NCBI GenBank assembly: GCA_944391115.1
Contig: CALXSJ010000012.1
Location: 41,630-105,629, forward strand
Direction: 5' to 3'
Length of the DNA stretch: 64,000 nucleotides
From: an uncultured Victivallales bacterium
GTDB taxonomy: Bacteria; Verrucomicrobiota; Lentisphaeria; Victivallales; UBA1829
Shown: one piece after another, positions 4,028-42,707 of the stretch
How positions within the stretch are numbered: the stretch's first letter is position 1
Layout of the letters: each line of letters starts with the position of its first letter
The notes under the pieces: generated by a model
The model's database searches: none
Told to the model about the DNA's origin: nothing
The model's input: only the letters and a program-made list of their open reading frames with translations
Made by a program: the position numbers and the translations under genes

Positions 4028-4041
4028 AAAAATAAGGAAAA

Positions 4042-20201: not shown

Positions 20202-20942
20202 TTACAGGTTGGGGAATTTGCAGTAGCTTTCGTATCCGGCTTTGAGTTCGCCGTTGACGAAATAATTGAAGATCAGAAACATGGTTGCCATTCCCGGGTA
20301 GGAATAAATGCACGGAACATCCCTGGACTTCCGGTTTTCCGCATGACCGTCCCAGAAAGAGACATTGACCGTTCCGGAATGCCGCCAGAATGCCGCCGCA
20401 TCGCCTCCGTTCAGACTCGATGGAGTCCATATGGAGAAATTCTTCACATCCAGAAGCAGGCTGGTGCGCGACGGACGGGGCAGGGAGCCGAGGCGGTGTG
20501 CGGAGACGGCTGTCCAGCTGCTTCCTCCGCCCTCGACCGCATACTGATTCACTCCGTAGCTGGTCGCGTTCGTTCCGAGCGAAGGATCCTCAGGCGCATT
20601 CGGGCGCAGTTCCTCCGGGGTCGTGTTCGGACACGTGAAGATGCTCGGCCCCCGGTAGTGCGAGTCCAGATACATGCGCTCCTTGGGAATCTTGTAAAGC
20701 TCCGCAAGCAGATCCTGGTACATCATCATGTTTCCCATGTTTTTGGGGGAGGGCAGATAGCTGTTGTAGTCGTTGCCGTAGAGCAGAAAATAGTGCGTGA
20801 GCTGCCGGACGTTTCCGAGACATTTGATCTTCTTTGCGGTTTCCCGCGCCTTGCCGAGGGCGGGAAGAAGCATCCCCGCAAGCACCGCGATAATCGCAAT
20901 TACAACAAGAAGTTCTATCAGCGTGAATGATTTTCTTGCCAT
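20202..20942 (-). CDS. prepilin-type N-terminal domain / H-X9-DG pseudopilin-like protein
   Basis: [48 protein letters not shown] and C-terminal [13 protein letters not shown] (H-X9-DG). 13-nt gap to the upstream regulator gene. Confidence 0.9.
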
Positions 20943-22100: not shown

Positions 22101-22128
22101 ATTATACTTGAAAAAAAGAGATTGTCAA
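22101..22128 (-). promoter_or_regulatory. consensus sigma70 promoter of the cassette-2 regulator/operon
   Basis: The minus strand reads TTGACA (22128-22123), 16 nt, TATAAT (22106-22101). An A8-TA-T7 tract lies just upstream at 22140-22156. Confidence 0.6.
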
Positions 22129-22382: not shown

Positions 22383-25013
22383 TCAGTCCCGGATGGCTTT
22401 CCGGCAGTTTTGCAGAACATTTTCATATTCCGGTGTTTCTGCAAGGACAAAAACAGGGGTCGGGCCCAGTGAAAACGCACGTTCTGTTTTTTTGCGCAGG
22501 TCGTTTCCCATTACGTCACAGACCAGATAGGAAGAGGGGAGGCGCGAAAGGTCGAATTTCCGGCGCCCTTCCGTCGCTGCGTCGTCGTGTATGGTGAATG
22601 CGGTTCTCCCCTTGCCGGAGAAAAGAGCCTGCACCACTCCTTTTTCCGGAGGGAAGGGGCGTGGATCGAGTCCGTCAATGAACCATGCCGTCACTGCGGT
22701 TGCCGCGGCGGAGACCGTGGGGGTCCGGTCGTATTCGATCAGCATTTTATAACCTCCGCGGTATGACATGGTGTCCGTCTGGTGAAGCGTGTAATAGAAA
22801 AATTTCCCGATACCGGCCTTTTTCTGTTCAATCCAGATGCGCGATCCGGCGGCAGCCGCTTCGCTGTGTTCCTCCCGGCGGGAACGGAAACTGTAGAAGA
22901 GCGAACGGAAGCCGCCCCAGGATCCTTCCGTGTTCCAGTATTCTCCCGGGTCGCGCAATGTCAGGATTTTTTTTCGAAATTCCTCCAGATCGTTTTTGAC
23001 GGACAGTGTTCCATCGCCGGGTGGGTGCTGGAAATAAACATGGAAGGATACGGCATCGATTCCGCTGATTTCCGACTTGGGAAGCTTTGCGATGAATCCT
23101 GCTGTCGTCAGTTCCGAGCACCATCCGAGGACCTTTGCGTTCGGATTGCCTTCCTTCAGGGCTTTGAACGCCGCCTGGAAGAGTTCCGCGAACTGCTGCG
23201 CGTCACCCGGATAGAAATAACTGATGTAAGGTTCGTTCCAGATCTCCCATGTGTCAATCCGTCCCCGGTAATGCTCCGCTGCCTTCCTGCACCAGTCGGC
23301 ATAGATTTTCACATGGATCGGATTGCCTTTCCCCCCGCCGCTGCGCCTGGCATGGGGCGCCGGATAATCAGGCAGTCCGAGGATGTGAAATCCCGCTTTC
23401 AGGATGGCATCCACGGCCTCATCCTTCCATTGATATTTTCCCGGCTCAGGATTGCCCCATTTCATTTTGGTGATATTGGAACAGTCATGCAGGCGCTGCC
23501 ACCGGAATCCGAGGCGTTTTGCGTAATCTATAAAATAAGGACGCACCGCGAAATGGGTCCCGAAAAAACTTTCCGCACCGATATCATTCCGCGGCTCAGG
23601 AAGCCGTGCCGCGACATTTTCATGCATGGCGGCAGCAGCGGGATCCTCCGGAATCAGCATCAGGCGCATGATTCCGTTGACGCCGGGTTCAAGTTCTTTT
23701 TTCAATGTCTTTCCTGGTGTCAACACGACCTTTTCCTCCAGAACGGTCCGTTCCGGATATGCGACAACTTTCAATGTTGCCGGAATTTCCTTTGCCAGTC
23801 CGCCTTTGATCGCAGGCCAGGCCGAGAGAAGAAGCTGCAGCTTTTTCCCCCAAGGCACGATGTTCGGCAGTCCGTCCTCGAGCGCCGCCTCGATTTCGTA
23901 AGGGTGCGACGGTTTGTATTCCGAGGCTTTTGAACCCGCTTCAAATTGAATGCCGTCCACAAAGACTTCCGCAGGGCCGCTCTTCTGAAATTCGATCCGG
24001 ACACTGTCTATGAGATCGGGGACAACGCCCGAGGTTATGGAATAACGTTTCCAATCTTTCCCCGGCCGGATCAGCCGTGTTGCCTTTAGGTGCTTGCCAT
24101 TGACTTTTTGACTTTGGAATCCGCACCAGAGCGCGGCATTTCCCCGGCTCTTCATCCAGAATGAGAGGGTGTAGGGGGATCCGGAGGCGACGGGAATGTC
24201 CAGACTCTGCACATTCATCGCAAGCCCCCGGCCTCCTGTTTTCACCGGATCAAGGACGAAACAGTGTTTCCCGAATTTTCCTTCTTTGTCCGTCCGTCGG
24301 AACCCGGGATCTTCCCATTGCAGATCCGGATTGTTGCCCGTGAGCGAAACGGACCAGAAGGGATTCCTGGCGATTTCACAGGAGGAGTTCGGAATCAGAT
24401 TGCCCCGCACCAGCGGGTTTGCGTTTCTGCGGACAACGGCTTTTTCCGGATTTTCCTGAAACTCTTCCACGCGGATGTCGTCGATCATGATCCTGCCCAT
24501 TCCCGCACTGGAAAACATGACCCCGAAATCACGATCAATGTCCGTTCCTCCGGGTCCTGAAAAGGAATATTCCCTCCATTCGTTCGAGGGACGGAAGCGG
24601 ATGCCGCGAATGAGAACTTTCCAGGCGACAATTCTGCGGACCTTGGCCTCCACTGTTCCGCTGAAATCAATTCCTTTTGCCCGGAAGGAGATCTTATAGA
24701 AACGGTTGCGCGCCATGGTCCAGGGTGCGGTCCAGAACTGCATTTCCCCCTGACTGATCCCTTTGATATGGATCTGCAGTCCAGTGCCGCGGTAACCCTG
24801 GCAGGGCCGTATTTCGATTTCTTTTTTCCCCCATGTGTAATTGTTGGTGAAATCCGCCGGATAGGTATCCATTCCCCGGTGGGTTTTCCAGTTGCGGCAG
24901 TTTTCAAAGTCCCACACGCGGACAGTCTGACCTTCCAGAGATACGGTTTCCGCTTTTCCTGTCAGAGCGGAAAGCATTGCCGGAATCAGAAAGGCGGACA
25001 GAATGTTTTTCAT
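22383..25013 (-). CDS. exported multi-domain glycoside hydrolase (CBM-like N-terminal domains + clan GH-A TIM barrel)
   Basis: 876 aa. Signal peptide MKNILSAFLIPAMLSALTGKA. The WEIWNEP motif is the GH-A acid/base NEP. N-terminal beta-sandwich regions resemble CBM4_9-type modules. Confidence 0.85.
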   Translation of the reverse strand: MKNILSAFLIPAMLSALTGKAETVSLEGQTVRVWDFENCRNWKTHRGMDTYPADFTNNYTWGKKEIEIRPCQGYRGTGLQIHIKGISQGEMQFWTAPWTMARNRFYKISFRAKGIDFSGTVEAKVRRIVAWKVLIRGIRFRPSNEWREYSFSGPGGTDIDRDFGVMFSSAGMGRIMIDDIRVEEFQENPEKAVVRRNANPLVRGNLIPNSSCEIARNPFWSVSLTGNNPDLQWEDPGFRRTDKEGKFGKHCFVLDPVKTGGRGLAMNVQSLDIPVASGSPYTLSFWMKSRGNAALWCGFQSQKVNGKHLKATRLIRPGKDWKRYSITSGVVPDLIDSVRIEFQKSGPAEVFVDGIQFEAGSKASEYKPSHPYEIEAALEDGLPNIVPWGKKLQLLLSAWPAIKGGLAKEIPATLKVVAYPERTVLEEKVVLTPGKTLKKELEPGVNGIMRLMLIPEDPAAAAMHENVAARLPEPRNDIGAESFFGTHFAVRPYFIDYAKRLGFRWQRLHDCSNITKMKWGNPEPGKYQWKDEAVDAILKAGFHILGLPDYPAPHARRSGGGKGNPIHVKIYADWCRKAAEHYRGRIDTWEIWNEPYISYFYPGDAQQFAELFQAAFKALKEGNPNAKVLGWCSELTTAGFIAKLPKSEISGIDAVSFHVYFQHPPGDGTLSVKNDLEEFRKKILTLRDPGEYWNTEGSWGGFRSLFYSFRSRREEHSEAAAAGSRIWIEQKKAGIGKFFYYTLHQTDTMSYRGGYKMLIEYDRTPTVSAAATAVTAWFIDGLDPRPFPPEKGVVQALFSGKGRTAFTIHDDAATEGRRKFDLSRLPSSYLVCDVMGNDLRKKTERAFSLGPTPVFVLAETPEYENVLQNCRKAIRD

Positions 25014-25028
25014 AAAGGTCTCCCAGTT

Positions 25029-25469
25029 TCATTGTTCGTAAATTTCAATTTCGTAAATCCCGTAACTCTGCCATTTCGTTCCCGGTTTTTCCAGACGGAT
25101 CCTGATGAAGCGCGTTTCTACCGTGGAAAATCCGAATGCGTCGATTCCGCCTGCTCCGTTATCGGTTTTCGCGACTTCCCGGAACGTTTTCCTGTCTTTG
25201 GATACTTGTATGGAAAAGTGTTCCGCAAAACATGTCTGCCAGTAAATGATGACACAGCCCACGTTGCGGATTTCTCCCAGATCCACCATGATCCACTGCC
25301 GTTCCCTCTGTCGTGAGGACCAGTGAGTCCGGATGTCTCCATCAATGCTTTTCGAGGCATTTTTCAGATTTTCACTTGCCGTGGCGTATCCATTCCGCGC
25401 CAGGTTGTCCTCCATGGCAAGGACCATGGAAATACTGAAGAATAATACCGGTATCATAAGATATCTCAT
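25029..25469 (-). CDS. exported F5/8 type C (discoidin) domain protein
   Basis: Start at MRYLMIPVLFFSISMVLA (complement of 25467-25469). SIDGDIRTHWSS...QWIMVDLGEIRNVGCVIIYWQ...FSIQVSKDRKTF...YGIYEIEIYE is a classic discoidin pattern. Confidence 0.8.
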   Translation of the reverse strand: MRYLMIPVLFFSISMVLAMEDNLARNGYATASENLKNASKSIDGDIRTHWSSRQRERQWIMVDLGEIRNVGCVIIYWQTCFAEHFSIQVSKDRKTFREVAKTDNGAGGIDAFGFSTVETRFIRIRLEKPGTKWQSYGIYEIEIYEQ

Positions 25470-25491
25470 CGCATTTCTCCTTTCCGAATAT

Positions 25492-26157
25492 TCAGAATCC
25501 GATATTCCTGCACTTTGCGGCGATGCCGGCGGAAGCCAGCGCTTCGACATGCATATCCAGAAACAGAAAGTTTGTTTTCCCCTGATGATTGTATCCGAAA
25601 AGCTCCCGTCGCTTTGTTTCCGTGCTTTTTACTGTTCCGTTAAACTCCTGAATCCAGGAGGAACCGGAGCCGCCGTCGGCGCGGAGAAAATTGTTGGTCG
25701 GATGCGTGATTTTCGCATATAGAAAGACGGTGTGACGCATATAGGGGTCCGGGATTTCCGCGCTGGATTTCCCCGTTTCCCTGCTGGAAAGAAGCGGTGA
25801 GATGCCATACCATCCGGAATTTTTGTATCCGGTACTGTCTTTCGTTCGAGCGCTTTCCTGCGGACAGGCGAAAATTCCCGTCCTTTTGTTTCTTGCTTTT
25901 TGCATTGTCACGACATCCGGATAACCTGCATAAGAGAAAACATGGTTGTAAAAATACTGTCCGGTGAACAGCCAGCCTCTCGAATCATCAGTGTAACAGA
26001 GAAAACAATAGCCCTGTTGCCTCAGGTTGTTGACGCATTGAATGGATCGTCCCCTCCGACGGACCTGATTCAAGGCGGGAAGCAGAATGGAGACGAGAAG
26101 AGCAATGACACCAATAACAATTAAAAGCTCTAAAAGTGTGAATTGTTTTCTCTGCAT
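25492..26157 (-). CDS. prepilin-type N-terminal domain / H-X9-DG-like pseudopilin-like protein
   Basis: MQRKQFTLLELLIVIGVIALLVSILLPALNQVRRRGRSIQCVNNLRQ. The C-terminal HQGKTNFLFLDMH is an H-X9-DM variant. Confidence 0.85.
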   Translation of the reverse strand: MQRKQFTLLELLIVIGVIALLVSILLPALNQVRRRGRSIQCVNNLRQQGYCFLCYTDDSRGWLFTGQYFYNHVFSYAGYPDVVTMQKARNKRTGIFACPQESARTKDSTGYKNSGWYGISPLLSSRETGKSSAEIPDPYMRHTVFLYAKITHPTNNFLRADGGSGSSWIQEFNGTVKSTETKRRELFGYNHQGKTNFLFLDMHVEALASAGIAAKCRNIGF

Positions 26158-26259
26158 ATTCCTGTCCTCCCTGTTTTGTTGAAAATGCTCGTTTCCTGCC
26201 CGGATTTCTCCCTTGCGGAGAAAGATGATCCTCGAATCCGCGGCATGGCTCTTCCTGTT

Positions 26260-27591
26260 TCATCCATTCTGCATCACTGCCAGTTTTTCATCCATGCATT
26301 TTCGTATCAGCTCCGGATTCGCTCCGAAGAATTCATGCTGTTCATATAAAGCAGCCAGCACTGCGATTTCTTCCTTGCTCAGGAGATCCCGTGTAAGAAA
26401 CACGGTTCCTTCCTGCGGAAAAAACCAGCGGAAATCTTCTCTTGTCATCCATGGATGATCTTCCGGGCGCATGTCTTTCCGCGGAGAAATCATTCCGGAC
26501 AGCGCCGCCAGTTTCTTCTGAGTTTCCCGGGAAAGCAGCTCCTTGAGGAAGAGCCAGAGACGTTTTTTCTCCGATATGGTTACGGTATGATTTGCAAAAG
26601 CCTGAAGAGGAACACTCCGCCAGGACAGCAGATGGCGCTTCCCGCACATTTTCGGGATGATCCGGAAAGCTTCCGGAAGCATTCCTCGCCGTCCCGCCTG
26701 AATCGATATCCAGGAGCCGATATTGAAGCTCAGGGCGCATGAGCCGTCAAGAAAGGGGGTCTGTTCATTTCGCGTCGCATGCAGATCTCCCATAATACGG
26801 AACATTCTCTTTCCGGCTTTCGTATGGAAAAAAGGTGTCCGGAAAAGCCTTTCAACGGAATTCCTCTCATTGGCCATGATGATTTCCGCAAGCGGCTGAA
26901 GGGGAAAACTCCAGAGCGTGTCCGTGAAATAATTTTTGACCGCGGGAACAATTCGTTCTCTGCGGCAGGCTGCTGCAAAAGATTTCCACCACTCCATAGA
27001 GGAGAGTTCCGTGATCCTGTTTTCAAAACCGGTTTTCTTCAGCAGCGGCAGGTTTACCGCTCCCTGAGCGGAAAGGCAGTAAAAGGGAACCAGCGTGCCT
27101 CCCCGTTCCGGAACAGCTTCGGAAAATTCCGACATGAAGTCTCCGTAATCCGGAAAACAGGAAAAATCCATCTGCGGTCCGCTGCTTTTCATCCATGGAT
27201 CGAATTCTGAAAGAATAACCTTGTGGGTGCTTGCAGAAGCGTCCAGTTCTTTTTTCAGATAGCGTTTCTTCAGGATGAAATTCAAGTTCAGCTGATGTTT
27301 TTCGGAAATTTCCGACAGGATTTTTTTCAATTCCGCAAAATCGAACAGTGTTTCCTGGAGATAAAACTCGACATCCAGCACATCTCCGCCGTTCAGAAAC
27401 GAACCGACACCGTTGACAATCCGGATTTTGCCCTCCTGCTCCAGTTTTTTGAACGAGCGTTGAGCTGTTGTGTAGGTGATTCCGAAACGGTCACAGATTT
27501 CCGCATATTTAGGCAGCTTGTCACCGGGGCGGAGCTTGTTTTCCGAGATGAGACGGTCCAGATGATTTCTGATTGTTTCCGTTACAGACAT
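26260..27591 (-). CDS. GntR-family HTH regulator with large C-terminal ligand-binding-like domain of unassigned fold
   Basis: HTH DKLPKYAEICDRFGITYTTAQRSFKKLEQEGKIRIVNGVGSFL. I moved the start to MSVTETI (complement of 27589-27591) because a consensus promoter lies inside the ORF-track N-terminal extension. Confidence 0.8.
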   Translation of the reverse strand: MSVTETIRNHLDRLISENKLRPGDKLPKYAEICDRFGITYTTAQRSFKKLEQEGKIRIVNGVGSFLNGGDVLDVEFYLQETLFDFAELKKILSEISEKHQLNLNFILKKRYLKKELDASASTHKVILSEFDPWMKSSGPQMDFSCFPDYGDFMSEFSEAVPERGGTLVPFYCLSAQGAVNLPLLKKTGFENRITELSSMEWWKSFAAACRRERIVPAVKNYFTDTLWSFPLQPLAEIIMANERNSVERLFRTPFFHTKAGKRMFRIMGDLHATRNEQTPFLDGSCALSFNIGSWISIQAGRRGMLPEAFRIIPKMCGKRHLLSWRSVPLQAFANHTVTISEKKRLWLFLKELLSRETQKKLAALSGMISPRKDMRPEDHPWMTREDFRWFFPQEGTVFLTRDLLSKEEIAVLAALYEQHEFFGANPELIRKCMDEKLAVMQNG

Positions 27592-27620
27592 TGCCGTTTT
27601 GTGCTTTCCATGAAAAGATA

Positions 27621-27636
27621 TGCTATGTATATAGCT
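27621..27636. promoter_or_regulatory. inverted repeat AGCTATATACATAGCA (candidate operator)
   Basis: The minus strand reads AGCTAT-ATAC-ATAGCA, starting 3 nt after the -10. It shares the GCTATATA...GCA core with the palindrome at 22078-22089. Confidence 0.45.
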
Positions 27637-27639
27637 TTT

Positions 27640-27668
27640 ATTATACCGTTTCATGTTTCCTTTGTCAA
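27640..27668 (-). promoter_or_regulatory. consensus sigma70 promoter of the cassette-3 regulator/operon
   Basis: The minus strand reads TTGACA (27668-27663), 17 nt, TATAAT (27645-27640). An A/T-rich inverted repeat lies upstream (27672-27700). Confidence 0.6.
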
Positions 27669-27952
27669 GTTCAAGAAAGAAAAAAGTTTTATTTTTCTTC
27701 GTAACACAGATATCTTCCGAGGATTAGGAAAACTTGCCTGCCAGGGGCAGGGCAATTCTCCCCGCCGCAGTCCGAGTGCGGAATATCGATGCATGATTCC
27801 GGGATATGGGAGAGACTGCTTGCATTTGAGAGGAGTTTGTTTTTCCGGTTGATATTTCCGGAATCCGTGATATGGTAGCGGGAAGGGGAAGGGGACCTGC
27901 GCGTTTTCCGCGGATGCCGTCCCGGCAATCATAACGCAAAGGAGGTGTTCCG

Positions 27953-28501
27953 ATGAAACAAATCGTTCCGTTCTGTCTGCTGCTTCTGCTCGGCGCCTGC
28001 GCGGGATCCGGCACGCAGGACATTCCATCCGTCAGCGGACTGGATGTGCCGCGCTATATGGGGAAATGGTATGAAATCGCGCGTCTGCCGCATACGTTTG
28101 AAAAGGATCTGGATTTTGTCACGGCGGAGTATACCCTCCGTGACGACGGGCGGATCCGCGTGGTCAACCAGGGGATGCGGAACGGCGCGCAGAGCCGGGC
28201 GGAAGGCATTGCCAAATTGAAGAATCCCGATGCCCGTCCTGTGACAGGAGATCTGCGCGTCTCCTTCTTCCGGCCGTTTTACGGAGATTACAGAATCATC
28301 GAACTGGGAAACGACTACAGTTACGCCGTCGTGACTTCCTCTGCGAAGGATTATCTCTGGATTCTCTCCCGTTCGCCGCAGCTGCCTGAAAAACTGCTGT
28401 CCGGACTGACTGCCCGTCTGAAAACCCTCGGATTTGACACGGAAAAGCTTGAATATCCGAAACAGGAGGTGCCGCCATGTTCCGGCGCGAAGTCGTTGTA
28501 A
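27953..28501 (+). CDS. blc: bacterial lipocalin (outer-membrane lipoprotein Blc)
   Basis: Lipobox LLLLLGAC, and YMGKWYEIARLPHTFEKD...YRIIELGNDYSYAVV...LWILSR. AAAGGAGG SD at 27939-27946. Confidence 0.85.
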   Translation: MKQIVPFCLLLLLGACAGSGTQDIPSVSGLDVPRYMGKWYEIARLPHTFEKDLDFVTAEYTLRDDGRIRVVNQGMRNGAQSRAEGIAKLKNPDARPVTGDLRVSFFRPFYGDYRIIELGNDYSYAVVTSSAKDYLWILSRSPQLPEKLLSGLTARLKTLGFDTEKLEYPKQEVPPCSGAKSL

Positions 28502-28993: not shown

Positions 28994-31153
28994 TTACAGC
29001 GCAATGTCCTTGTGATCGTGCTGCGCCATGGCGTTCTCTTCGATCATCTGAAGCAGAATGGCGCCGGTTGTCCGGATCCGGTAGCCGGAGATGAAATAGT
29101 TCCTCCCCGCAATCTGCTGTTCAAACTGCGCCATGTTGTTTGCGGAAATGATTCCGGCCAGTTTCCGGATTTCCTCCGCCGCAGGCATGCCGTCTGCCGC
29201 GGCTTCTCCGAGCAGATGGAGTTTCCCGTTCCGGATTGTCACGACGCACCCTTCATGATCGAGGAGATAGAGTTCATGAATGGGATCGGCGTTGTTTGCC
29301 TGAATGAGCGGCGCAAGCAGACGCTCCAGACGCAGTTCCAGTCCCGCCACTCCGAGAAATTTTCCATCCCGTCCGTACATCGGATAGCGGCAGGTGATGC
29401 GCAGGTTTCCCTGAGGGGTCTGATACGGTGCGGACCAGATGATCTTTCTGTATTCCCCGGGTTCTGCGAAGGTGTTCCAGCAGCGTTTGAACGCATCCGA
29501 TTCCGGATTGTCATAGGTTCCGGGATAGCTGTAGCGGACGCCGCTGGCCCAGCGGACGAAAAGACGCTGGATCATGGAGGCGGGATCGAGGATTTTGCCT
29601 CCTGAAAAACCGGTTTCATTGATGCGGGTGCTGTTCAGATCGTAATTGACGACTTTGCTGCAGATCTGCACAAATTGTTTCGCGTCCGGCAGGTGCTGGA
29701 GAGTTTTTGACGGTGCATCCGGCAGGAAACGGGTCATATAGGCCAGATTTACGGGGTTGGGATACAGCGGGGAACGCTGCATTCCCGGAGGAGAGGTTTC
29801 CGCTTTCCCGTAATCCTTGTTGTCGTAGAATTCCGAATCTGGGTAGGGGGTGGCGGCGGTGGCGCACTCCTGGACGTCCTCGATCAGGTTGTCCGCGAAG
29901 ATCAGAAGCTGCGCCTGAATCTGGAGGATGTTTCTGCCGACGGCGGTGGCGAGAATGTCCGTGTAGCCCTGCAGGCGAAGCCGGCGCATCGTGTTGACGG
30001 CGCGCAGTTCGTTGTCCCGGTTTGCGCGGTAGTAGGAGTAGAAGAGTTCCCCGCAGAGCAGTGCGAAAAGCAGTCCCGTGATGAGGATCGATTTGATCCG
30101 GTTGCGGTAGATCAGGCGGAAAAACTTCTGGAATAAATTGTCCGGAGCGGCGGAAACTTCTTCGTCGTAAATGAAGTGCCGGACGTCGGCGGCGAGCGCC
30201 GCGACGCTCGGATAGCGTCCGGTCGGATCGGGATTTACCGCTTTCAGAATGACCGCCTTGATTCTCGGGGCGATTCTGAGGGAGGGCAGATAGTGGCGGT
30301 AACTCTGTTCGTCATGGACGTCGCTGGAGGTTGCGCTGTCCTCCTGCGCGGCGGAACAGCGGCTGTCCCCGCGGCGCAGCGTCGTCATCTCGAAAAGCAG
30401 CACGCCGAGGGAATAGACATCCACGAGCGGCGTCACGACTTTGTTCTCCAGAAATTCCGGCGGCAGATAGTTCGGAGTTCCGCTCAGGCTTTCCGGAACG
30501 GTTCCGAAGGTCCGCGCACAGCCCCAGTCCATCAGATAGACCTCGCCGAAATTTCCCATGAGGATGTTTTCCGGCTTGATGTCCCCGTGCACGACTTTCA
30601 GGCTGTGGCAGTACTCCACCACGGCGCAGATTTTGAGAAAATATTCCAGACGCGAAATCAGTGCGTGACGCTCCTGCGCGGCATTCACTTTCTTCTTGTC
30701 GTAAGTGGCGCGGACGGTGCTGATGAAGCGTTTCAGTGAAGACCCGCTGATGAATTTCATCGCCACCTGCCAGTGGCCGTCCGCATCTTTGCCGAGATCG
30801 TAGACCGGCACGATGGATGGATGGTCGAGTTTTGCGTTCAGGCGGCATTCCTCGACAAAGGAGCGGATTGCCTCGGCATTGTCGCGGAAGGTTTCATTCA
30901 GGCACTTGACCGCGACAACCCGGTCGAAGACCAGGTCCCGGGCCTTGCCCACCTTTCCGACTCCGCCCGCGCCGAAATCGCAGATGAACTGGTAGCGTCC
31001 GGAGAATTCCGGAGTCTTTGCTGATTCGGGAGTTTCCGCTGCAATGGGATTTTCCCGGTTCCGGTGAAGCGCGCCGGCGAGAACGACCGTTGCATCGATT
31101 TCCCGCGTCGTATTTCCCCGGGAGACCGGAGGTGGCGCATTGTTTTCTTTCAT
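28994..31153 (-). CDS. Ser/Thr protein kinase with single TM helix and extracytoplasmic Cache-like sensor domain
   Basis: Kinase motifs VAVKCL, VHGDIKPENILM, MDWGCA and GTPNYLPPE. TM helix SILITGLLFALLCGELFYSYY. The C-terminal ~330 aa include WSAPYQ...GKFLGVAGLELRL, as in Cache domains. Confidence 0.85.
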   Translation of the reverse strand: MKENNAPPPVSRGNTTREIDATVVLAGALHRNRENPIAAETPESAKTPEFSGRYQFICDFGAGGVGKVGKARDLVFDRVVAVKCLNETFRDNAEAIRSFVEECRLNAKLDHPSIVPVYDLGKDADGHWQVAMKFISGSSLKRFISTVRATYDKKKVNAAQERHALISRLEYFLKICAVVEYCHSLKVVHGDIKPENILMGNFGEVYLMDWGCARTFGTVPESLSGTPNYLPPEFLENKVVTPLVDVYSLGVLLFEMTTLRRGDSRCSAAQEDSATSSDVHDEQSYRHYLPSLRIAPRIKAVILKAVNPDPTGRYPSVAALAADVRHFIYDEEVSAAPDNLFQKFFRLIYRNRIKSILITGLLFALLCGELFYSYYRANRDNELRAVNTMRRLRLQGYTDILATAVGRNILQIQAQLLIFADNLIEDVQECATAATPYPDSEFYDNKDYGKAETSPPGMQRSPLYPNPVNLAYMTRFLPDAPSKTLQHLPDAKQFVQICSKVVNYDLNSTRINETGFSGGKILDPASMIQRLFVRWASGVRYSYPGTYDNPESDAFKRCWNTFAEPGEYRKIIWSAPYQTPQGNLRITCRYPMYGRDGKFLGVAGLELRLERLLAPLIQANNADPIHELYLLDHEGCVVTIRNGKLHLLGEAAADGMPAAEEIRKLAGIISANNMAQFEQQIAGRNYFISGYRIRTTGAILLQMIEENAMAQHDHKDIAL

Positions 31154-38586: not shown

Positions 38587-38789
38587 AATCCCCGATAGAG
38601 CGCATGCTTGCATCGCGGTAATTGATTTCTCGGAAAAGAATGCTTAAAAATATCTTTGATCCGTTTCATGACGGGTATTTTTTCTGGTTTTTACGGACAA
38701 AAAAGATACAATGATGATTTTATCGAATTAAAATGCACATAAAAAAGAAAAAAAACAGATAAATTCCCTTCCGGAAAGATTTTTCTTCC

Positions 38790-38817
38790 TTGTCAAACAG
38801 TGCTTTTTCATTATAAT
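38790..38817 (+). promoter_or_regulatory. sigma70-type promoter of the cassette-4 pseudopilin-like gene
   Basis: TTGTCA (38790-38795), 16 nt, TATAAT (38812-38817). A-tracts lie upstream. A direct repeat AATATCCGG at 38815-38823 and 38842-38850 follows the -10. Confidence 0.5.
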
Positions 38818-38863: not shown

Positions 38864-39790
38864 ATGAATGCAAAACAGCTTCGGCGGGGAGAAAAAATCA
38901 TGAAAGCGGCAAACATCCTGACTGACGGGAATTTGTTTCAGAACGCCTCCGTGCGTCGGAGAATCCGGCGTGCGGTTCTCTTTTTCCATCTGCGGCGCGG
39001 ATTCGGAAAAAGGAAGGAAAACCTCTTCGGCGGCGGAAGAAACTTTCCGGCATGTTTCACTTTGATCGAGCTCCTGGTCTGCATTGCGATCATCGCCATT
39101 CTGGCTTCGCTTCTGCTGCCGGCTCTGAATACCGCGAAAGAGAAGGCGCGCGGCATTTCCTGCCTTTCCAATCTGAAACAGTGCGGAGTGGCGCTCTACT
39201 CCTATGCCGCGGACTACAGGGACTATGTCGCGCTCCGGCAGGGCGGAACCGGATGGGTCTCCTTCTATGCGAACGTTCCGGACGAGCGTCTGGCCAACCG
39301 TCCCGACAGCGGAATGAAATATCTGGCGACCTCCTGTGTGATCTGCCCGTCCGCAAAACCCGGAAAGTATGACACGGGCTCAAGCGATGCTGCGAAAGTC
39401 GCCTACGGATACAATTACACGAGCATGGTTGCGCGCGGGACGTTCAATCTCGCTCCCGGCGATTACGATCTGATCTTCCGTCTCCGGGATCCGAAACAGA
39501 ATCTCAAGGCAATCAAGGATCGCATCACCACAATGAATCCGAACTGCGACACAATGGTTCTTCTTTTCGATTCCTGGTCCGTCGGACAGCAGTCCCAGTG
39601 GACCTGGGGAAATCCGCAGCCGACGCTTTCCGCGACGGATTCAACGATCGGTCTTCATCACGGGAAGCGGGGCAATGCGCTGATCGCGGACGGAAGCGCG
39701 GGCGCCTATGACCGGCCTGGCGTATGGGAGCGTCTCGGCTTCAACATGGCGGCAGTCGGCGAGGCGTCGCAGTATCTTCCCACACATTGA
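38864..39790 (+). CDS. prepilin-type N-terminal domain / H-X9-DG pseudopilin-like protein (unusually long leader)
   Basis: [43 protein letters not shown] and [13 protein letters not shown] (H-X9-DG). The start is uncertain. ATG 38900 has a GGGGAG SD, while ATG 38864 has none. Confidence 0.8.
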
Positions 39791-39896
39791 AGTGATGAAG
39801 TCGCCGCCCCGGCCGCTCTGCGCAGGCGGACGGATGCGGATGATCTTCAGAAGAAATACCCTGTTCATTACAAAAGAAAAGAGGATTGCACACAAA

Positions 39897-42707
39897 ATGA
39901 TTCCAATTCAGAAGAAAATTCTGTTCGGCGCCTGCTGGCTGCTGCCGATCTTCGGTCTGGCGGCTGCGGAGACTCTTTTGAATCTCAAGGCGGATACGGG
40001 AACGGAGACTCGGATCGAACGGGCGGCGAATCCCGCCGGAAAAGGCAAGGTCTTCGCATTCAGCTGTGCGGTGGACCGCTATGCTTCCCTCAAACTGCCG
40101 AAATCCCCGGGAGCGAACTATACCCTGACCGCATGGTTCAATCCGGACGGCATTCCGGACCGGATCGGGAAATTCACGCTGCTCGGCGAACACGGCGGCC
40201 GTCTCCGTCTTTCCTATCTTCCGTCCAAACAGTTTGAAGTCGAGTTTAAGCTTGCGAACGGGAAACGGGAAGTTATCAAAACCAGGGCGCTTCCCTCCGA
40301 CCGGTGGTATCATGTCGCGTTTGTCTGCCTCGGGGACAAGCGCCGCGCCCGGATTTACGTCAACGGGGAGATTCATCATCAGAGCGTGATCGCCGACGCG
40401 CCCGCGCCGCCTGAAGGGGAACTTTTCCTCGGCTGTGCCGATCCTGCCGCGGCGCGTCCGTTCTGGTGCAACGGATTCGCCGATGAGATCCGTCTTTACG
40501 ATACGGTTTTTGAATCCTGGGACGTCAAGAAGATTTTTCAGGGGGAGGCCGCGCGCTATACGCTTCCGAAAACTCCCGTACCGACCGGAAAAGCGCAGGC
40601 TGCACGTCCGTTCGTTCTTCTTCCGCCTTTTGCGGACAACGCCGTATCCGAGCGGAAGAAACAGCTTCTGCGAAAGGAGATTCCCGTGCAGCTGGAACAG
40701 TATCTTGCCGCAATCCGGAAATACCGTGCGGAGATCGATGCTTATCTCGGCGCCCGTTCATGCTTTCAGAAGGAGCGCATCGGAAAACGGGTGGAAATTG
40801 TCGGGAATCTTGCCGCCTTCATCCGGAAAAATCTGGATTCCGGCGATCTGACGGGGCTCTGTTCCGCCGCGAACGGCATCCGGGACATGAAACGTTTCGT
40901 CGATTATTTTCAGCTGGAGGCGGAATGCATCGCGAAATTTCCGTGGCTGCCGGAGGGCGGACTCCCCGGCAACAACCCGAAGATTTTCAGCGTCCGTGAT
41001 TTCGGCGCGAAGGGCGACGGCGTGACGGACGACTCCGCCGCGTTCGTCCGCGCGCTGGATGCCGTGAAACAGTGCGCCGGAGCGCCCGCCGTGCTCCGGA
41101 TTCCTTCGGGGGTCTACTTTTTCAACAGCTTTGTTCCGGCGAAGGGAAAGCCTGCGGAAAAGGGCGGCTGCCATGTGCGGATTCCGAAGCTGGAAAACGC
41201 GCTGATCGAAGGGGAGAATCCCGAAACGACGAAATTCCTCTTCGGGCGTCCGCAGGCGGCGGGAATTTTCATGGATGCGTGCCGCAATGTCACGGTGCGC
41301 AATCTGATGCTCCAGTATAAAAAGACGCCCTTCTGCCAGGGAACCGTTCTTGAGGTGAATGTTCCGGCGAACACGGTTACGATTCAGCTTGATCCGGGCA
41401 CGCTGGCTCCGGACGATCCCGTCTACAAGGCGAATCCGCGTTTCCAGTGCTGCACGGCGTATACGCCCGACGGCAGGCTGGTCCGCACGCAGTTCCTGGT
41501 CTACAACGAAAAGAAGGCGGATTCCCTCGGGAACGGGAAATACCGGATTTACATGGACAGGCGCTATTCTGTCCGCCACGTCCGTCCCGGGCTGAAGTTC
41601 GTGATTCCGAACCGCGACGGCGCGTATCCGTGCTTCCCGACCGGCGACAGCACGCTCTGCACGGCGGAAAACATCTATATCCGCAACTCTCCCGCGGCGG
41701 CCTTTCAGACCTGGGGGGGATTCTGGAACTCCTGGACGAAATGCCGTCTTTATCCGCTTCCGGGGCTCTGTCTGGCCTCCAATGCCGACTTCCTGATTTC
41801 CGGCAACGGCACGTATCTGTCCCGCTGCTCCGTGAAGAATCCGGGTGACGACTGCTTCAACGTTTTCGTCGGCGGAAAGAATGTCGTCGAAGCGGAAGGC
41901 ACTCATGCGCGCTATCCCGCGATGCCTGGCCGTTCCATTCCCGGCAACACCCTTGCCTTCCTCTCCGGCGAAACCGGACAGACGCTTGCGCTCGCGACCA
42001 TCAAAAGCCAGTCACGGATGGGCGGAGACACCGTCGCCGTTCTGGAGGAGGCGCTTCCGGATACCATCGTCAGCCGGAAAAAAGGCGGCCTGAAGAAACT
42101 CTCTCCGGTTCAGGAGGACCTTGTCTCCCGCGCGCTGATCCGCTACGAGTTCCGGCGGGACGCCGTCTACGACTCCCGCCAGTGGGGCATCGGATCGGTC
42201 GCCAGCGGCAATTCGTTTGCGCATGCCCGCGCCGGGATCAACATCCAGTCCGCCTGTTCGCTGGTGGAGAACAACACGTTTGAAAACATTCCGATGGGAG
42301 TCGGCATTGCGGTTTCCTGTCTGCTCGGCGTGCATGAGGGACCCGCACCCTACTGCATCACCGTGCGCGGCAACACCGTCAACGATGCCTGGGCGGGGCT
42401 CCGGACTTTCACCTTTGTCCAGAATATGGCTCCCGCGCAGTGCGCCCCGATCCGCGCTCTCGTTTTCGAGAACAACCGCTGGAGCAATACGGGCGGACTG
42501 ATCGTGAAAAATCTTTCCGACTCCGTTTTCCGCGGGAACACGATTGCCGGGGGGAACGGCGTGAATTCGTTCGGAGAGAAAATGAACCGGATTTCGGTGG
42601 ACCGTTCCGCAAATCTCCTGTTCAGCGGCAATGTCTGTCTCGGACGCCCGCTGACGCAGAACGATCTTCTTCTGAAAGAGTGCGGAAACGGCATTCTCGT
42701 GAAATAG
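39897..42707 (+). CDS. exported LamG-like + right-handed beta-helix (pectate-lyase-fold) protein, putative polysaccharide-degrading enzyme
   Basis: Start at MIPIQKKILFGACWLLPIFGLAAA (ATG 39897). The LamG-like region reads LTAWFNPDG...WYHVAFVC...IYVNGE...ADEIRLYD. The beta-helix N-cap motif is FSVRDFGAKGDGVTDDSAAFVRAL. Confidence 0.8.
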   Translation: MIPIQKKILFGACWLLPIFGLAAAETLLNLKADTGTETRIERAANPAGKGKVFAFSCAVDRYASLKLPKSPGANYTLTAWFNPDGIPDRIGKFTLLGEHGGRLRLSYLPSKQFEVEFKLANGKREVIKTRALPSDRWYHVAFVCLGDKRRARIYVNGEIHHQSVIADAPAPPEGELFLGCADPAAARPFWCNGFADEIRLYDTVFESWDVKKIFQGEAARYTLPKTPVPTGKAQAARPFVLLPPFADNAVSERKKQLLRKEIPVQLEQYLAAIRKYRAEIDAYLGARSCFQKERIGKRVEIVGNLAAFIRKNLDSGDLTGLCSAANGIRDMKRFVDYFQLEAECIAKFPWLPEGGLPGNNPKIFSVRDFGAKGDGVTDDSAAFVRALDAVKQCAGAPAVLRIPSGVYFFNSFVPAKGKPAEKGGCHVRIPKLENALIEGENPETTKFLFGRPQAAGIFMDACRNVTVRNLMLQYKKTPFCQGTVLEVNVPANTVTIQLDPGTLAPDDPVYKANPRFQCCTAYTPDGRLVRTQFLVYNEKKADSLGNGKYRIYMDRRYSVRHVRPGLKFVIPNRDGAYPCFPTGDSTLCTAENIYIRNSPAAAFQTWGGFWNSWTKCRLYPLPGLCLASNADFLISGNGTYLSRCSVKNPGDDCFNVFVGGKNVVEAEGTHARYPAMPGRSIPGNTLAFLSGETGQTLALATIKSQSRMGGDTVAVLEEALPDTIVSRKKGGLKKLSPVQEDLVSRALIRYEFRRDAVYDSRQWGIGSVASGNSFAHARAGINIQSACSLVENNTFENIPMGVGIAVSCLLGVHEGPAPYCITVRGNTVNDAWAGLRTFTFVQNMAPAQCAPIRALVFENNRWSNTGGLIVKNLSDSVFRGNTIAGGNGVNSFGEKMNRISVDRSANLLFSGNVCLGRPLTQNDLLLKECGNGILVK

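What the first reader, a model, noticed from the sequence alone, without database searches (positions are those of the whole stretch)
22383..27668. Second, adjacent cassette with the same logic but non-homologous parts (cassette 3)
Seen in the sequence:
- The gene order is: GntR-HTH regulator (different, larger C-terminal domain), 102-nt gap, H-X9-DG-like protein (H-X9-DM variant), 22 nt, discoidin (F5/8-C) domain protein, 15 nt, 876-aa CBM + clan GH-A enzyme (WEIWNEP).
- The slots match cassette 2: regulator, pseudopilin-like protein, small carbohydrate-binding protein, large exported hydrolase.
- The binding module differs (discoidin versus CBM9) and so does the hydrolase family.

The architecture is conserved while the parts are swapped. 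That argues for a functional module rather than a recent duplication. Again there is no transporter gene.
Basis: partly seen in the sequence, partly recalled or inferred. Interest (0 to 1): 0.65.

Follow-up and report, generated by a model that had tools for sequence, protein, structure and literature searches.

The report
Pilin-linked sugar-degrading operon in Victivallales
This is a real four-gene operon for breaking down a sugar polymer: a sugar-sensing regulator, a pilin-like membrane protein, a small sugar-binding protein and a large exported enzyme. The same layout recurs with different parts across a poorly studied group of gut and environmental bacteria, where the role of the pilin-like gene is still unknown.

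Summary
Four minus-strand genes lie at the stated spacings of 102, 22 and 15 nt.

- **Regulator:** a GntR winged-helix regulator whose true start is 27591, not 27654. Its 370-residue C-terminal domain is predicted to have the MalE-type oligosaccharide-binding-protein fold. None of the seven recognised GntR subfamilies has this fold.
- **Pilin-like protein:** 221 aa, of the DUF1559/H-X9-DG kind, with the variant motif H-X9-DM.
- **Lectin:** a secreted CBM32 (discoidin) domain protein.
- **Enzyme:** an exported 876-aa protein with the full clan GH-A catalytic signature. It falls below every curated family threshold tried.

A 12/12 sigma-70 promoter followed by a palindrome precedes the regulator, and no internal promoter or terminator was detected. 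This is most likely one autoregulated operon.

All 16 non-redundant regulator homologues examined are from Victivallales or Lentisphaeria. Each has a pilin-like gene within two genes downstream, usually followed by exported carbohydrate-active enzymes. Fifteen pilin-like genes chosen independently of any regulator show the same association.

The conserved core is regulator + pilin-like protein + exported enzyme. Gene order and the small binding-protein slot vary.

Pilin head domains are conserved within orthologous cassettes and very divergent between them, as expected of a specificity element. Their mechanism is not resolved: secretion adaptor, glycan capture, or membrane-anchored binding protein.

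The parts
27640..27668 (-). Sigma-70-type promoter, TTGACA-17 nt-TATAAT (12 of 12 matches), at the head of the cassette.
   Evidence: Twelve of 13 non-redundant homologous regulator genes have TTGACA (one TTGACG), a 17-nt spacer (one 16-nt) and TATAAT (one TATACT), 31-51 nt before the start codon.
27622..27635 (.). Operator-like palindrome GCTAT-ATAC-ATAGC, 4 nt after the -10 hexamer, over the expected transcription start.
   Evidence: Unique exact match in the window. All 13 homologous promoters compared have an ATAG/ATAT-containing element at the same place. Cassette 2 has ATAGC-AAACT-GCTAT at the equivalent place. Binding by the regulator is inferred, not shown.
26260..27591 (-). Regulator gene, 443 aa from the corrected start M22 at 27591; the stop codon is included.
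   Evidence: The longest ORF starts at 27654, but the promoter lies inside that extension, and 10 of the 13 aligned homologues start exactly at the M22 position.
27397..27579 (-). GntR-type winged-helix DNA-binding domain (residues 5-65 of the 443-aa protein).
   Evidence: Pfam PF00392, E 1.7e-12, 47 bits against a 27-bit cut-off.
26263..27384 (-). Sensor domain with a MalE-type (SBP_bac_1/8-like) oligosaccharide-binding-protein fold (residues about 70-443). It is cytoplasmic, with no signal peptide.
   Evidence: AlphaFold2 model: pLDDT 85.7, pTM 0.78. Foldseek against the PDB: 396 hits with E <= 1e-3; all 50 listed are solute-binding proteins, nearly all annotated as sugar- or oligosaccharide-binding, best E 8e-14. 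Three of 38 family members also hit SBP_bac_8 or SBP_bac_1 by sequence.
26158..26259 (-). 102-nt spacer between the regulator gene and the pilin-like gene.
   Evidence: No promoter-like or terminator-like site and no Rfam match. In most orthogroups the two genes abut or overlap.
25492..26157 (-). Pilin-like protein of the DUF1559/H-X9-DG kind, 221 aa. It has a basic leader MQRKQ, then FTLLELLIV... with Glu at +5, and Gln instead of Gly at -1.
   Evidence: There are 553 relatives at E <= 1e-3, and about half of the 120 listed carry PF07596 and/or PF07963. A family profile matches the N-terminal helix of solved type IV pilins (PilA 7e-15, GspG 1e-7). The AF2 model shows a long alpha-1 helix (8-58) and a small beta sheet, pLDDT 77. 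The head has no PDB fold match.
25549..25587 (-). C-terminal motif H191-x4-N196-x4-D201-M202-H203, the H-X9-DM variant of H-X9-DG.
   Evidence: In 61 relatives H191 is invariant and N196, D201 and H203 are at least 90% conserved. DM occurs in 13 and DG in 49 of the 87 relatives with the motif. C41 and C98 are invariant, suggesting a disulfide and hence an exported head.
25029..25469 (-). Secreted stand-alone CBM32 / F5-8 type C (discoidin) lectin, 146 aa, with an N-terminal signal peptide.
   Evidence: Pfam PF00754, E 2e-19. The closest solved relatives are the chitosan-binding DD1/DD2 modules of a Paenibacillus glucanase/chitosanase, E 2.5e-15. The signal peptide was judged with a crude hydrophobicity score.
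22383..25013 (-). Exported 876-aa enzyme: signal peptide, beta-sandwich CBM-like region, then a C-terminal clan GH-A (beta/alpha)8 catalytic domain.
23916..24242 (-). CBM_4_9-like beta-sandwich module (residues about 258-366).
   Evidence: Pfam CBM_4_9, E 1.3e-4 (below cut-off). NCBIfam spike-fibre beta-sandwich domain, E 2.5e-7.
22614..23576 (-). Clan GH-A catalytic domain (residues about 480-800). The proposed acid/base is E594 in WEIWNEP (codon 23232-23234) and the proposed nucleophile is E696 in WNTEG (codon 22926-22928).
   Evidence: R507, N593, E594, P595, H658, Y660, W693, E696 and G697 are invariant in 8 homologues at 24-38% identity. The weak best matches are GH1, GH53 and GH39 structures aligned across the NEP strand.
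22101..22128 (-). Downstream boundary: the promoter of the next cassette (cassette 2), TTGACA-16-TATAAT, 12 of 12 matches.
   Evidence: it is followed by its own ATAGC/GCTAT palindrome. It shows that cassettes 3 and 2 are separate transcription units.

Best explanation
Cassette 3 is a self-contained, substrate-specific glycan-utilisation operon of a Victivallales (Lentisphaerota) bacterium.

**Regulation (inferred from sequence).**
- One strong promoter drives all four genes.
- The first product is a GntR-type DNA-binding domain fused to a cytoplasmic MalE-like oligosaccharide-binding domain.
- It most likely sits on the palindrome over the transcription start and represses its own operon.
- It would leave the DNA when an oligosaccharide released from the target polymer reaches the cytoplasm and binds the sensor domain.

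**Exported products (inferred from sequence).** Induction yields three exported proteins.
- A free CBM32 lectin.
- A retaining clan GH-A glycosidase with its own CBM-like modules.
- A cassette-specific protein with a type IV pilin N-terminus and a fast-evolving head.

**Role of the pilin-like protein (the least certain step).**
- It is most likely an operon-specific subunit or adaptor of a shared type IV filament machine, such as a type II secretion system, encoded elsewhere in the genome.
- It would tie that machine to this cassette's exported proteins, for secretion across or display on the outer membrane.
- The variable head would then supply the specificity.

**What is shown and what is not.** Shown: the gene content, the predicted folds, the promoter and palindrome, and the conserved linkage across genomes. 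Inferred: repression, the inducer, co-transcription and the role of the pilin-like protein.
For: **Operon structure**
- The four genes are on one strand with gaps of 102, 22 and 15 nt.
- Only one strong promoter was found, and no internal promoter, terminator or Rfam element.
- In most orthogroups the regulator and pilin-like genes abut or overlap.

**Regulator**
- It has a GntR HTH and a confident MalE-like fold.
- All 38 full-length family members keep the HTH, and 3 hit SBP_bac_1/8 by sequence.
- The promoter and a post -10 ATAG element are present at all 13 homologous promoters compared.

**Enzyme and lectin**
- The GH-A catalytic residues are invariant.
- The lectin is a CBM32.
- Both have signal peptides.

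**Pilin-like protein**
- The N-terminus matches type IV pilins and GspG.
- Glu+5 and two Cys are invariant.
- Between cassettes, regulators stay 39-51% identical while pilin heads fall to 20-37%. Within orthogroups, heads are 66-94% identical. Mantel test: 0 of 2000 permutations reached the observed correlation.
- Head similarity follows cassette relatedness.

**Generality**
- All 16 non-redundant regulator-homologue loci examined show the linkage.
- All 15 independently sampled pilin-like genes lie in clusters with sugar-related or carbohydrate-active enzyme genes, and 14 of them with a sugar-type regulator.
- In most cassettes the gene after the pilin-like gene encodes an exported protein. 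The same tendency is reported for DUF1559 genes in Planctomycetes (PMC8567305).
- One related cassette holds both a pilin-like gene and an MFS transporter. The pilin-like protein therefore does not simply replace the inner-membrane transporter.
Against: **No experimental data exist for any DUF1559 protein.** The literature found describes only the paralogue expansion.

**Against a canonical pseudopilin**
- Residue -1 is Gln here. It is Gly in only 6 of 117 relatives. Canonical prepilin peptidases need Gly there (own knowledge).
- The head gives no structural match to any solved pilin.
- No type II secretion or type IV pilus machinery gene lies in the window.

**Against a secretion-adaptor role in particular**
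- Some pilin-like genes sit with cytoplasmic enzymes only. In the window, 5031-5846 overlaps a xylose-isomerase-like gene. In locus L024 the pilin-like gene follows two enzymes without signal peptides.

**Regulation is inferred from sequence alone.** The operator, repression and inducer are all unverified, and the substrate is unknown.
Confidence: 0.55

Rival explanations
1. The operon is as described above, but the pilin-like protein works inward. It would be a glycan-specific subunit of a retractile pilus or pseudopilus that captures the polymer or its fragments and draws them through the outer membrane. This would parallel DNA uptake by competence pseudopili. It would also explain why most cassettes lack a transporter.
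For: - There is no transporter in this cassette or in most related ones.
- Cassettes mix exported and cytoplasmic enzymes, so fragments must be imported.
- Some pilin-like genes sit next to cytoplasmic enzymes only.
- The heads behave as specificity determinants.
- Sources name relatives 'DUF1559 family PulG-like putative transporter'.
- Precedents, from my own knowledge: pilin-family cellulose-binding proteins of Ruminococcus albus, and fibre-associated polysaccharide uptake proposed for Planctomycetes.
Against: - The head has no recognisable lectin or CBM fold.
- A separate secreted lectin is already encoded in the cassette.
- The lack of Gly at -1 raises the same doubt about filament assembly.
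- No machinery genes are linked.
Confidence: 0.25
2. The pilin-like protein is not a filament subunit. It stays uncleaved as a bitopic inner-membrane protein whose periplasmic head binds the cassette's oligosaccharide or chaperones its enzymes. This is the 'SBP_bac_10' reading of Pfam PF07596.
For: - Gly at -1 is absent in the four window proteins and in 111 of 117 relatives.
- Pfam names the family SBP_bac_10, and a paper calls it a new solute-binding family.
- In Tuwongella, proteins with both domains fractionate with detergent-soluble membrane fractions.
Against: - The predicted head is a small alpha/beta unit, not the two-lobed binding-protein fold. It matches no solute-binding protein in the PDB.
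- Phe+1 and Glu+5 matter for processing and filament assembly (own knowledge). They are invariant in 61 relatives.
- No ABC permease genes are linked. The one linked transporter found is an MFS, a class that does not use binding proteins.
Confidence: 0.15
3. There is no functional link. Pilin-like genes and carbohydrate-active enzyme genes are both very dense in these genomes and lie side by side by chance. Alternatively, cassette 3 is simply a diverged duplicate of cassette 2.
For: - Pilin-like genes occur about once per 10 kb in the loci examined.
- Regulators make up about 17% of called genes in the sampled loci, so the background is high.
Against: - Same-strand adjacency with 15-102 nt gaps, or overlapping stop and start codons.
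- Linkage in all 16 non-redundant regulator-homologue loci examined, and in the 15 independent samples.
- Co-conservation of regulator and pilin head within orthogroups.
- The sensor domains, binding modules and hydrolases of cassettes 2 and 3 share no detectable similarity.
Confidence: 0.05

Closest known systems
Polysaccharide utilisation loci of Bacteroidota (Sus-like systems), and Gram-positive PULs
   Same: They are co-regulated, substrate-specific cassettes. Each combines a sugar-sensing regulator, glycan-binding proteins and exported glycoside hydrolases. The layout is conserved while the parts are swapped, and many cassettes occur per genome.
   Different: There is no SusC/SusD pair and no ABC binding-protein/permease set. 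The recurring envelope component here is instead a type IV pilin-like DUF1559 protein. The regulator is a GntR-HTH fusion rather than a hybrid two-component system, SusR or an ECF sigma factor.
DUF1559 / H-X9-DG 'prepilin-type' paralogue families of Planctomycetota, Verrucomicrobiota and Lentisphaerota (Pfam PF07596 SBP_bac_10, PF07963 N_methyl, NCBIfam TIGR04294)
   Same: The N-terminal FTLIELL helix, the C-terminal H-x9-D-G/M-H motif and the two conserved Cys are shared. The family is hugely expanded per genome. [quoted passage not shown]
   Different: This protein is short (221 aa) and falls below the curated cut-offs of all three models. Gly at -1 is replaced. The tight coupling to sugar regulators and carbohydrate-active enzyme operons was not described in the literature I could search.
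Type II secretion pseudopilins (GspG-K) and type IV minor pilins
   Same: It has a class III-like signal: a short basic leader, Phe+1, Glu+5 and a hydrophobic alpha-1 helix. The profile matches GspG and PilA N-termini. Minor pseudopilins are thought to contact secreted substrates (own knowledge).
   Different: It is not encoded in a gsp or pil operon. There is no Gly at -1. The head has no match to solved pilins. Genes are present in many operon-specific copies rather than one set per machine.
AraR-type GntR regulators (GntR HTH + LacI/GalR-type sugar-binding domain)
   Same: A GntR winged helix is fused to a periplasmic-binding-protein-like sugar sensor and controls glycan-degradation genes. 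The regulators of cassettes 2 and 4 in the window are of this kind (GntR + Peripla_BP_3).
   Different: The sensor here is a roughly 370-residue MalE-type (SBP_bac_1/8-like, class II) fold, not the LacI-type class I fold. The family is tiny: 68 clusters at 50% identity among 1.84 billion proteins. The genome-derived members that carry an organism name are all labelled Victivallales, Victivallaceae or Lentisphaeria.
CBM32 modules, e.g. DD1/DD2 of Paenibacillus sp. glucanase/chitosanase (PDB 4zxe, 2rv9)
   Same: The F5/8 type C fold, with E 2.5e-15 to these modules.
   Different: Here it is a free-standing secreted protein with its own gene, not a module appended to an enzyme. Its ligand is unknown.

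Membership tests
GntR family of transcription regulators | [quoted passage not shown] | tested here: met
   47.2 bits against a 27-bit cut-off, E 1.8e-12. All 38 family members scanned also match.
Recognised GntR subfamilies (FadR, HutC, MocR, YtrA, AraR, DevA, PlmA) | A C-terminal effector domain of one of the seven known types. | tested here: not met
   There is no Pfam or NCBIfam hit to FCD, UTRA, aminotransferase or Peripla_BP domains; NCBIfam hits cover the HTH only. The predicted fold is MalE-type SBP. The count of seven subfamilies comes from PMC11705089; their names come from my own knowledge.
Bacterial extracellular solute-binding proteins, family 1/8 (MalE-like fold) | A two-lobed class II binding-protein fold, or a sequence match to PF01547/PF13416. 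| tested here: inconclusive
   The fold criterion is met: Foldseek E 8e-14, TM 0.6 on the target, about 420 aligned columns. The window protein itself has no Pfam SBP hit. Three of 38 relatives hit SBP_bac_8 or SBP_bac_1. A profile search found no classical secreted SBP at E <= 1e-3. Ligand binding was not tested.
Type IV pilin / type II secretion pseudopilin (class III signal peptide) | Short basic leader, Phe/Met at +1, Glu at +5 and a roughly 20-residue hydrophobic alpha-1N helix. | tested here: met
   The sequence reads MQRKQ-FTLLELLIVIGVIALLVSILLPAL. F6, T7 and E10 are invariant in 61 relatives. The profile hits PilA at 7e-15 and GspG at 1e-7 over the helix.
Type IV pilin / type II secretion pseudopilin (class III signal peptide) | Gly at position -1, the prepilin peptidase cleavage site. 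| tested here: not met
   It is Gln here and F, S and C in the other three window proteins. It is Gly in 6 of 117 relatives. The curated models are also missed: TIGR02532 scores 13.9 bits against 16.3, and PF07963 gives no hit.
Type IV pilin / type II secretion pseudopilin (class III signal peptide) | Processing by a prepilin peptidase and assembly by a type IV filament machine. | not testable with these tools
   This needs N-terminal mass spectrometry and genetics. No machinery gene is in the window.
DUF1559 / H-X9-DG proteins (PF07596, TIGR04294) | A match to PF07596 or TIGR04294 above the curated cut-off. | tested here: not met
   PF07596 gives no hit at E <= 0.1. TIGR04294 scores 14.0 bits against a 19-bit cut-off, E 0.035.
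DUF1559 / H-X9-DG proteins (PF07596, TIGR04294) | Full-length homology to family members, and the C-terminal H-x9-D-G motif. | tested here: met
   There are 553 homologues. The best non-self hits have E 6e-19 to 1e-11 over 90-100% of the length and carry PF07596 or are named H-X9-DG protein. H191, N196, D201 and H203 are conserved. The G-to-M variant is shared by 13 of 87 relatives.
CBM32 / F5-8 type C (discoidin) domain | A match to PF00754 above the cut-off. | tested here: met
   70.4 bits against 28.2, E 2e-19. Solved CBM32 modules match at E 2.5e-15.
Clan GH-A glycoside hydrolases | The conserved signature: Arg (beta-2), Asn-Glu acid/base (beta-4, NEP), His and Tyr (beta-6), Glu nucleophile (beta-7). 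| tested here: met
   R507, N593-E594-P595, H658, Y660 and E696 are invariant in 8 homologues. The NEP strand aligns with GH1, GH39 and GH53 structures.
GH39 (or any defined CAZy family) | A match above the curated family threshold. | tested here: not met
   PF01229 scores 19 bits against a 26-bit cut-off. The GH1 model TIGR03356 scores 14 bits against 478. Only 9 homologues were found among 5.8 billion sequences.
Bacteroidota-type PUL | An adjacent SusC-like TonB-dependent transporter and SusD-like gene pair. | tested here: not met
   No such genes are in the cassette, the window genes scanned or the related loci.

The most novel reading that the evidence does not exclude
Victivallales, and perhaps PVC bacteria more widely, may organise polysaccharide use around operon-specific pilin-like subunits that programme one shared type IV filament machine. 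Each sugar-induced cassette would supply its own 'specificity pilin'. That subunit would direct the machine to secrete or display that cassette's enzymes, or to reel in that cassette's glycan. This would be a third architecture for glycan utilisation, alongside SusCD systems and ABC/binding-protein systems. It would also explain the hundreds of unexplained DUF1559/H-X9-DG paralogues.
Probability: 0.3. Interest if true: 0.85.

Novelty: new variant of a known kind. Interest (0 to 1): 0.6.

Why it matters
DUF1559/H-X9-DG proteins are among the largest paralogue families without a known function in Planctomycetota, Verrucomicrobiota and Lentisphaerota. These bacteria are important polysaccharide degraders in guts, soils and oceans.

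- **A testable hypothesis.** In Victivallales these genes are built into sugar-regulated enzyme operons, and their variable heads track the cassette. This gives a concrete hypothesis for their role, testable with a cultivable relative such as Victivallis vadensis.
- **How cargo or substrate specificity arises.** The finding bears on the open question of how type II secretion-like machines gain that specificity.
- **Two by-products.** One is a GntR regulator class with a MalE-type oligosaccharide sensor, which could be useful as a biosensor scaffold. The other is an unclassified clan GH-A enzyme family.

Tried and rejected
- **Context of the hydrolase's homologues.** Only 9 homologues exist. 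The distant ones (35-37% identity) sit in loci without pilin-like genes. No orthologue of cassette 3 is available, so its own conservation cannot be tested.
- **Fold search of the pilin-like model against the PDB.** No match reached E < 3. This gives no support for a solute-binding fold or for any known pilin head.
- **Sequence search of the regulator profile against the PDB.** Only the HTH matched; a sugar ABC-transporter binding protein appeared at a non-significant E of 0.71.
- **Literature.** There is nothing on the function of DUF1559 proteins or on pilin-linked enzyme operons. Only descriptive notes exist (PMC8567305, PMC2754498).
- **Rfam scan, terminator scan and repeat search of the cassette.** No riboswitch, internal terminator, mobile-element ends or flanking repeats were found.
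- **A second operator copy.** Searching for the palindrome elsewhere in the window found none.
- **Rejected: recent duplication of cassette 2.**
- **Rejected: the ORF start at 27654.**
- **Not possible:** a structure model of the hydrolase or of pilin-cargo complexes (cap reached), and direct taxonomic placement of the window beyond inference from its nearest homologues.

Full report
**1. What is in the sequence**

| Gene | Coordinates | Length |
|---|---|---|
| Regulator (longest ORF) | 26260-27654 | 464 aa |
| Pilin-like protein | 25492-26157 | 221 aa |
| Discoidin protein | 25029-25469 | 146 aa |
| Hydrolase | 22383-25013 | 876 aa |

The gaps are 102, 22 and 15 nt.

Family scans support the domain calls:
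- The regulator matches GntR HTH at E 1.8e-12.
- The small protein matches F5/8 type C at E 2e-19.
- The hydrolase gives weak CBM_4_9 and GH39 matches.
- The 221-aa protein gives only weak N-terminal pilin and pseudopilin matches, and H-X9-DG scores 14 bits, below the 19-bit cut-off.

The regulator's start needs correcting:
- Ten of the 13 aligned homologues start exactly at the residue aligned with M22, and the other three have at most six residues before it.
- A perfect TTGACA-17-TATAAT promoter at 27668-27640 lies inside the longer ORF.
- The gene is therefore 26260-27591 (443 aa). The finding's end coordinate is the -35 box.

**2. The regulator**

- AlphaFold2 on 14 sequences gave a confident model (pLDDT 85.7, pTM 0.78).
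- Foldseek against the PDB returned 396 hits at E <= 1e-3. All 50 listed are solute-binding proteins, nearly all of them sugar- or oligosaccharide-binding: chitin-oligosaccharide, maltose, glucose, raffinose and cello-oligosaccharide binders. The best E was 8e-14 with about 420 aligned columns.
- A profile of the sensor domain alone found only 68 clusters at 50% identity among 1.84 billion proteins. Nearly all full-length members are 438-469 aa, with the domain starting near residue 70.
- All 38 full-length members scanned carry the GntR HTH. Three also hit SBP_bac_8 or SBP_bac_1 by sequence.
- Fourteen genome-derived relatives were found. Twelve sit on contigs labelled Victivallales, Victivallaceae or Lentisphaeria; the other two are from an unclassified bin.
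- A 2025 paper counts seven GntR subfamilies defined by the effector domain (PMC11705089). To my knowledge none has a MalE-type domain.
- The regulators of cassettes 2 and 4 in the window are the ordinary AraR-like kind, GntR + Peripla_BP_3.

**3. Promoter and operator**

- Twelve of the 13 non-redundant homologous regulator genes carry TTGACA (one TTGACG), a 17-nt spacer (one 16-nt) and TATAAT (one TATACT). These lie 31-51 nt before the start codon.
- Each is followed by an A/T-rich element containing ATAG/ATAT half-sites.
- In the window this element is the palindrome GCTAT-ATAC-ATAGC (27635-27622), which is unique in the window.
- Cassette 2 has ATAGC-AAACT-GCTAT at the same place after its own 12/12 promoter.
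- Cassettes 1 and 4 have their own promoters with different repeats.
- Inside cassette 3 the scan found only two weak (9 of 12) promoter-like matches, both within coding sequence, no terminator in an intergenic gap, and no Rfam match.
- In most orthogroups the regulator and pilin-like genes abut or overlap.
- I infer one autoregulated transcription unit per cassette. Binding and repression are not shown.

**4. The pilin-like protein**

- It has 553 relatives. About half of the 120 listed carry PF07596 (DUF1559, 'SBP_bac_10') and/or PF07963. Sources name them prepilin-type H-X9-DG protein, type II secretion system protein or 'DUF1559 family PulG-like putative transporter'.
- In 61 full-length relatives, F6, T7, E10 (Glu+5), C41, C98 and H191 are invariant. 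N196, D201 and H203 are nearly so.
DM occurs in 13 and DG in 49 of the 87 relatives that have the motif.
- A family profile matches the N-terminal helices of solved PilA, geopilin and GspG (E 7e-15 to 1e-7), but nothing beyond that helix.
- The AF2 model (pLDDT 77) has a 50-residue alpha-1 helix and a small sheet. It matches no PDB fold, including solute-binding proteins.
- The residue before Phe+1 is Gln here and F, S and C in the other three window proteins. It is Gly in only 6 of 117 relatives. Canonical prepilin peptidases require Gly at -1 (own knowledge).

**5. Lectin and enzyme**

- The 146-aa protein has a signal peptide.
- Its closest solved relatives are the chitosan-binding CBM32 modules of a Paenibacillus glucanase/chitosanase, at E 2.5e-15.
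- The 876-aa protein has a signal peptide, CBM-like beta-sandwich modules and a clan GH-A domain.
- R507, N593-E594-P595, H658, Y660 and E696 are invariant across eight homologues at 24-38% identity.
- It is below the curated GH39 and GH1 thresholds and has only nine homologues in 5.8 billion sequences.
- The substrate is unknown.

**6. Is the module conserved?**

*Regulator-anchored loci.* Each of the 16 non-redundant loci examined that carry a regulator homologue has a pilin-like gene within two genes downstream on the same strand. One further locus, L016, has a different gene at that position and may carry an insertion. Typical layouts are:
- regulator / pilin / 185-aa secreted protein / 1547-aa GH2-like enzyme;
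- regulator / pilin / alpha-amylase / GH2;
- regulator / pilin / CBM9 protein / CBM4_9 protein / esterase / fucosidase.

*Independently sampled pilin-like genes.* I examined fifteen pilin-like genes that were not chosen through a regulator. They came from the flanks of these loci, from three look-ups chosen only by pilin homology, and from the window's other three.
- All 15 lie in clusters with sugar-related or carbohydrate-active enzyme genes, and 14 of them with a GntR-, LacI- or AraC-type regulator.
- Eight have the regulator immediately upstream on the same strand. The binomial P is 0.002 against a background this sampling inflates.

*Co-evolution of regulator and pilin head.*
- Within orthogroups, regulator and pilin head are conserved together. 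Examples are 76/71, 63/66 and 77/83% identity (regulator/head).
- Between orthogroups, regulators stay at 39-51% while heads fall to 20-37%.
- In a Mantel test, 0 of 2000 permutations reached the observed correlation.
- The remaining head similarity follows cassette relatedness.

*What varies.*
- Gene order and gene number vary.
- The small third-slot protein is often unannotatable.
- Cassettes mix exported and cytoplasmic enzymes.
- One cassette carries an MFS transporter next to the pilin-like gene and a heparinase-type lyase.

*This cassette itself.* No orthologue of cassette 3 exists in the collections. Its third-position GC is 0.54-0.61 against 0.67-0.74 in neighbouring genes, which suggests a more recent arrival.

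**7. Mechanism**

The operon-level reading is well supported by sequence and comparative evidence. I put it at about 0.8. It comprises an oligosaccharide-sensing, autoregulating GntR-SBP repressor, a secreted lectin, a secreted retaining glycosidase and a cassette-specific envelope protein.

The role of the pilin-like protein is open. My estimates are:

| Role of the pilin-like protein | Estimate | Main evidence for | Main evidence against |
|---|---|---|---|
| Operon-specific subunit or adaptor of a shared type II secretion-like machine | about 0.35 | The next gene is usually exported. The same tendency is reported in Planctomycetes (PMC8567305). Coexistence with an MFS transporter places it at the outer envelope. 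| Some pilin-like genes sit with cytoplasmic enzymes only. |
| Glycan-capture or uptake pilus subunit | about 0.25 | Transporters are generally absent, and some pilin genes sit beside cytoplasmic enzymes only. | The head has no lectin or CBM fold, and a separate lectin is already encoded. |
| Uncleaved, membrane-anchored periplasmic binding protein | about 0.15 | Gly at -1 is missing. | Phe+1 and Glu+5 are strictly conserved, and the head lacks a binding-protein fold. |

Chance juxtaposition or simple duplication is essentially excluded.

**8. Comparison with known systems and novelty**

- It works like a polysaccharide utilisation locus but is not a Sus-type PUL, because there is no SusC/D pair.
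- The pilin-like protein belongs by homology to the DUF1559/H-X9-DG superfamily. It fails the curated thresholds and lacks the Gly -1 of true prepilins.
- The expansion of this family, and its tendency to neighbour secreted proteins, is published for Planctomycetes (PMC8567305).
- I found no description of its integration into sugar-regulated enzyme operons, nor of the GntR-MalE-type regulator.
- I rate it a new variant of a known kind, with interest 0.6.

Noticed in passing
window 26142-26157, 20927-20942, 5103-5117 and about 39044-39058; relatives P0024-P0143: The pilin-like proteins lack the Gly at -1 that canonical prepilin peptidase sites have. It is Q, S, F and C in the four window proteins and Gly in only 6 of 117 relatives. 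Phe+1 and Glu+5 are nevertheless invariant. Either the lineage's peptidase has an unusual specificity or these proteins are not cleaved.
   Followed up: partly
window 22101-22128, 38789-38817, about 3990-4040 and 27640-27668: Each of the four pilin-containing cassettes in the window starts with a near-consensus sigma-70 promoter followed by, or overlapping, its own palindrome or repeat. Cassettes 2 and 3 share GCTAT/ATAGC half-sites although their regulators have different sensor domains, so cross-talk is possible.
   Followed up: partly
window 22383-27800: Cassette 3 has lower G+C than its surroundings (0.45-0.55 against 0.55-0.61). Its third-position GC is 0.54-0.61 against 0.67-0.74. It also has no orthologue in the collections. 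This suggests recent horizontal acquisition. No repeats or mobile-element genes flank it.
   Followed up: partly
window 4042-5846 (+): A pilin-like gene (5031-5846) overlaps by 4 nt the end of a cytoplasmic xylose-isomerase-like TIM-barrel gene (4042-5034), and no exported enzyme is next to it. This layout is hard to fit to a pure secretion-adaptor role.
   Followed up: no
window 22383-25013 (-): The 876-aa enzyme has the full clan GH-A catalytic signature. It is below every curated family cut-off tried and has only nine homologues in 5.8 billion sequences. It may represent an undescribed glycoside hydrolase family.
   Followed up: partly
window 38864-43818 (+): A fourth cassette has a different order: promoter, pilin-like gene, a 999-aa protein with laminin-G and pectate-lyase-like beta-helix domains, then a GntR + Peripla_BP_3 regulator as the last gene.
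   Followed up: partly
L019 1438-7351: A related cassette reads GntR regulator / pilin-like protein / heparinase II/III-type polysaccharide lyase / MFS sugar transporter. Pilin-like genes therefore also accompany lyases and can coexist with an inner-membrane transporter.
   Followed up: partly
L025 5134-7435: A short 178-aa N_methyl pilin-like gene lies directly upstream of an ABC ATPase and an ABC-2 permease gene. This is a different kind of pilin-transporter pairing.
   Followed up: no
window 27953-28501 (+) and 28994-31153 (-): A bacterial lipocalin (Blc-like lipoprotein, E 1.4e-41) is transcribed divergently from cassette 3. Beyond it lies a 719-aa Ser/Thr protein kinase.
   Followed up: no
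L016 10333-19329: In one complete Victivallales genome the regulator homologue is followed by a different gene (374 aa, SEC-C-like Cys motif) instead of the pilin-like gene seen at the same position in L015, whose regulator gene begins with the same 40 residues. An insertion or rearrangement may have occurred there.
   Followed up: no
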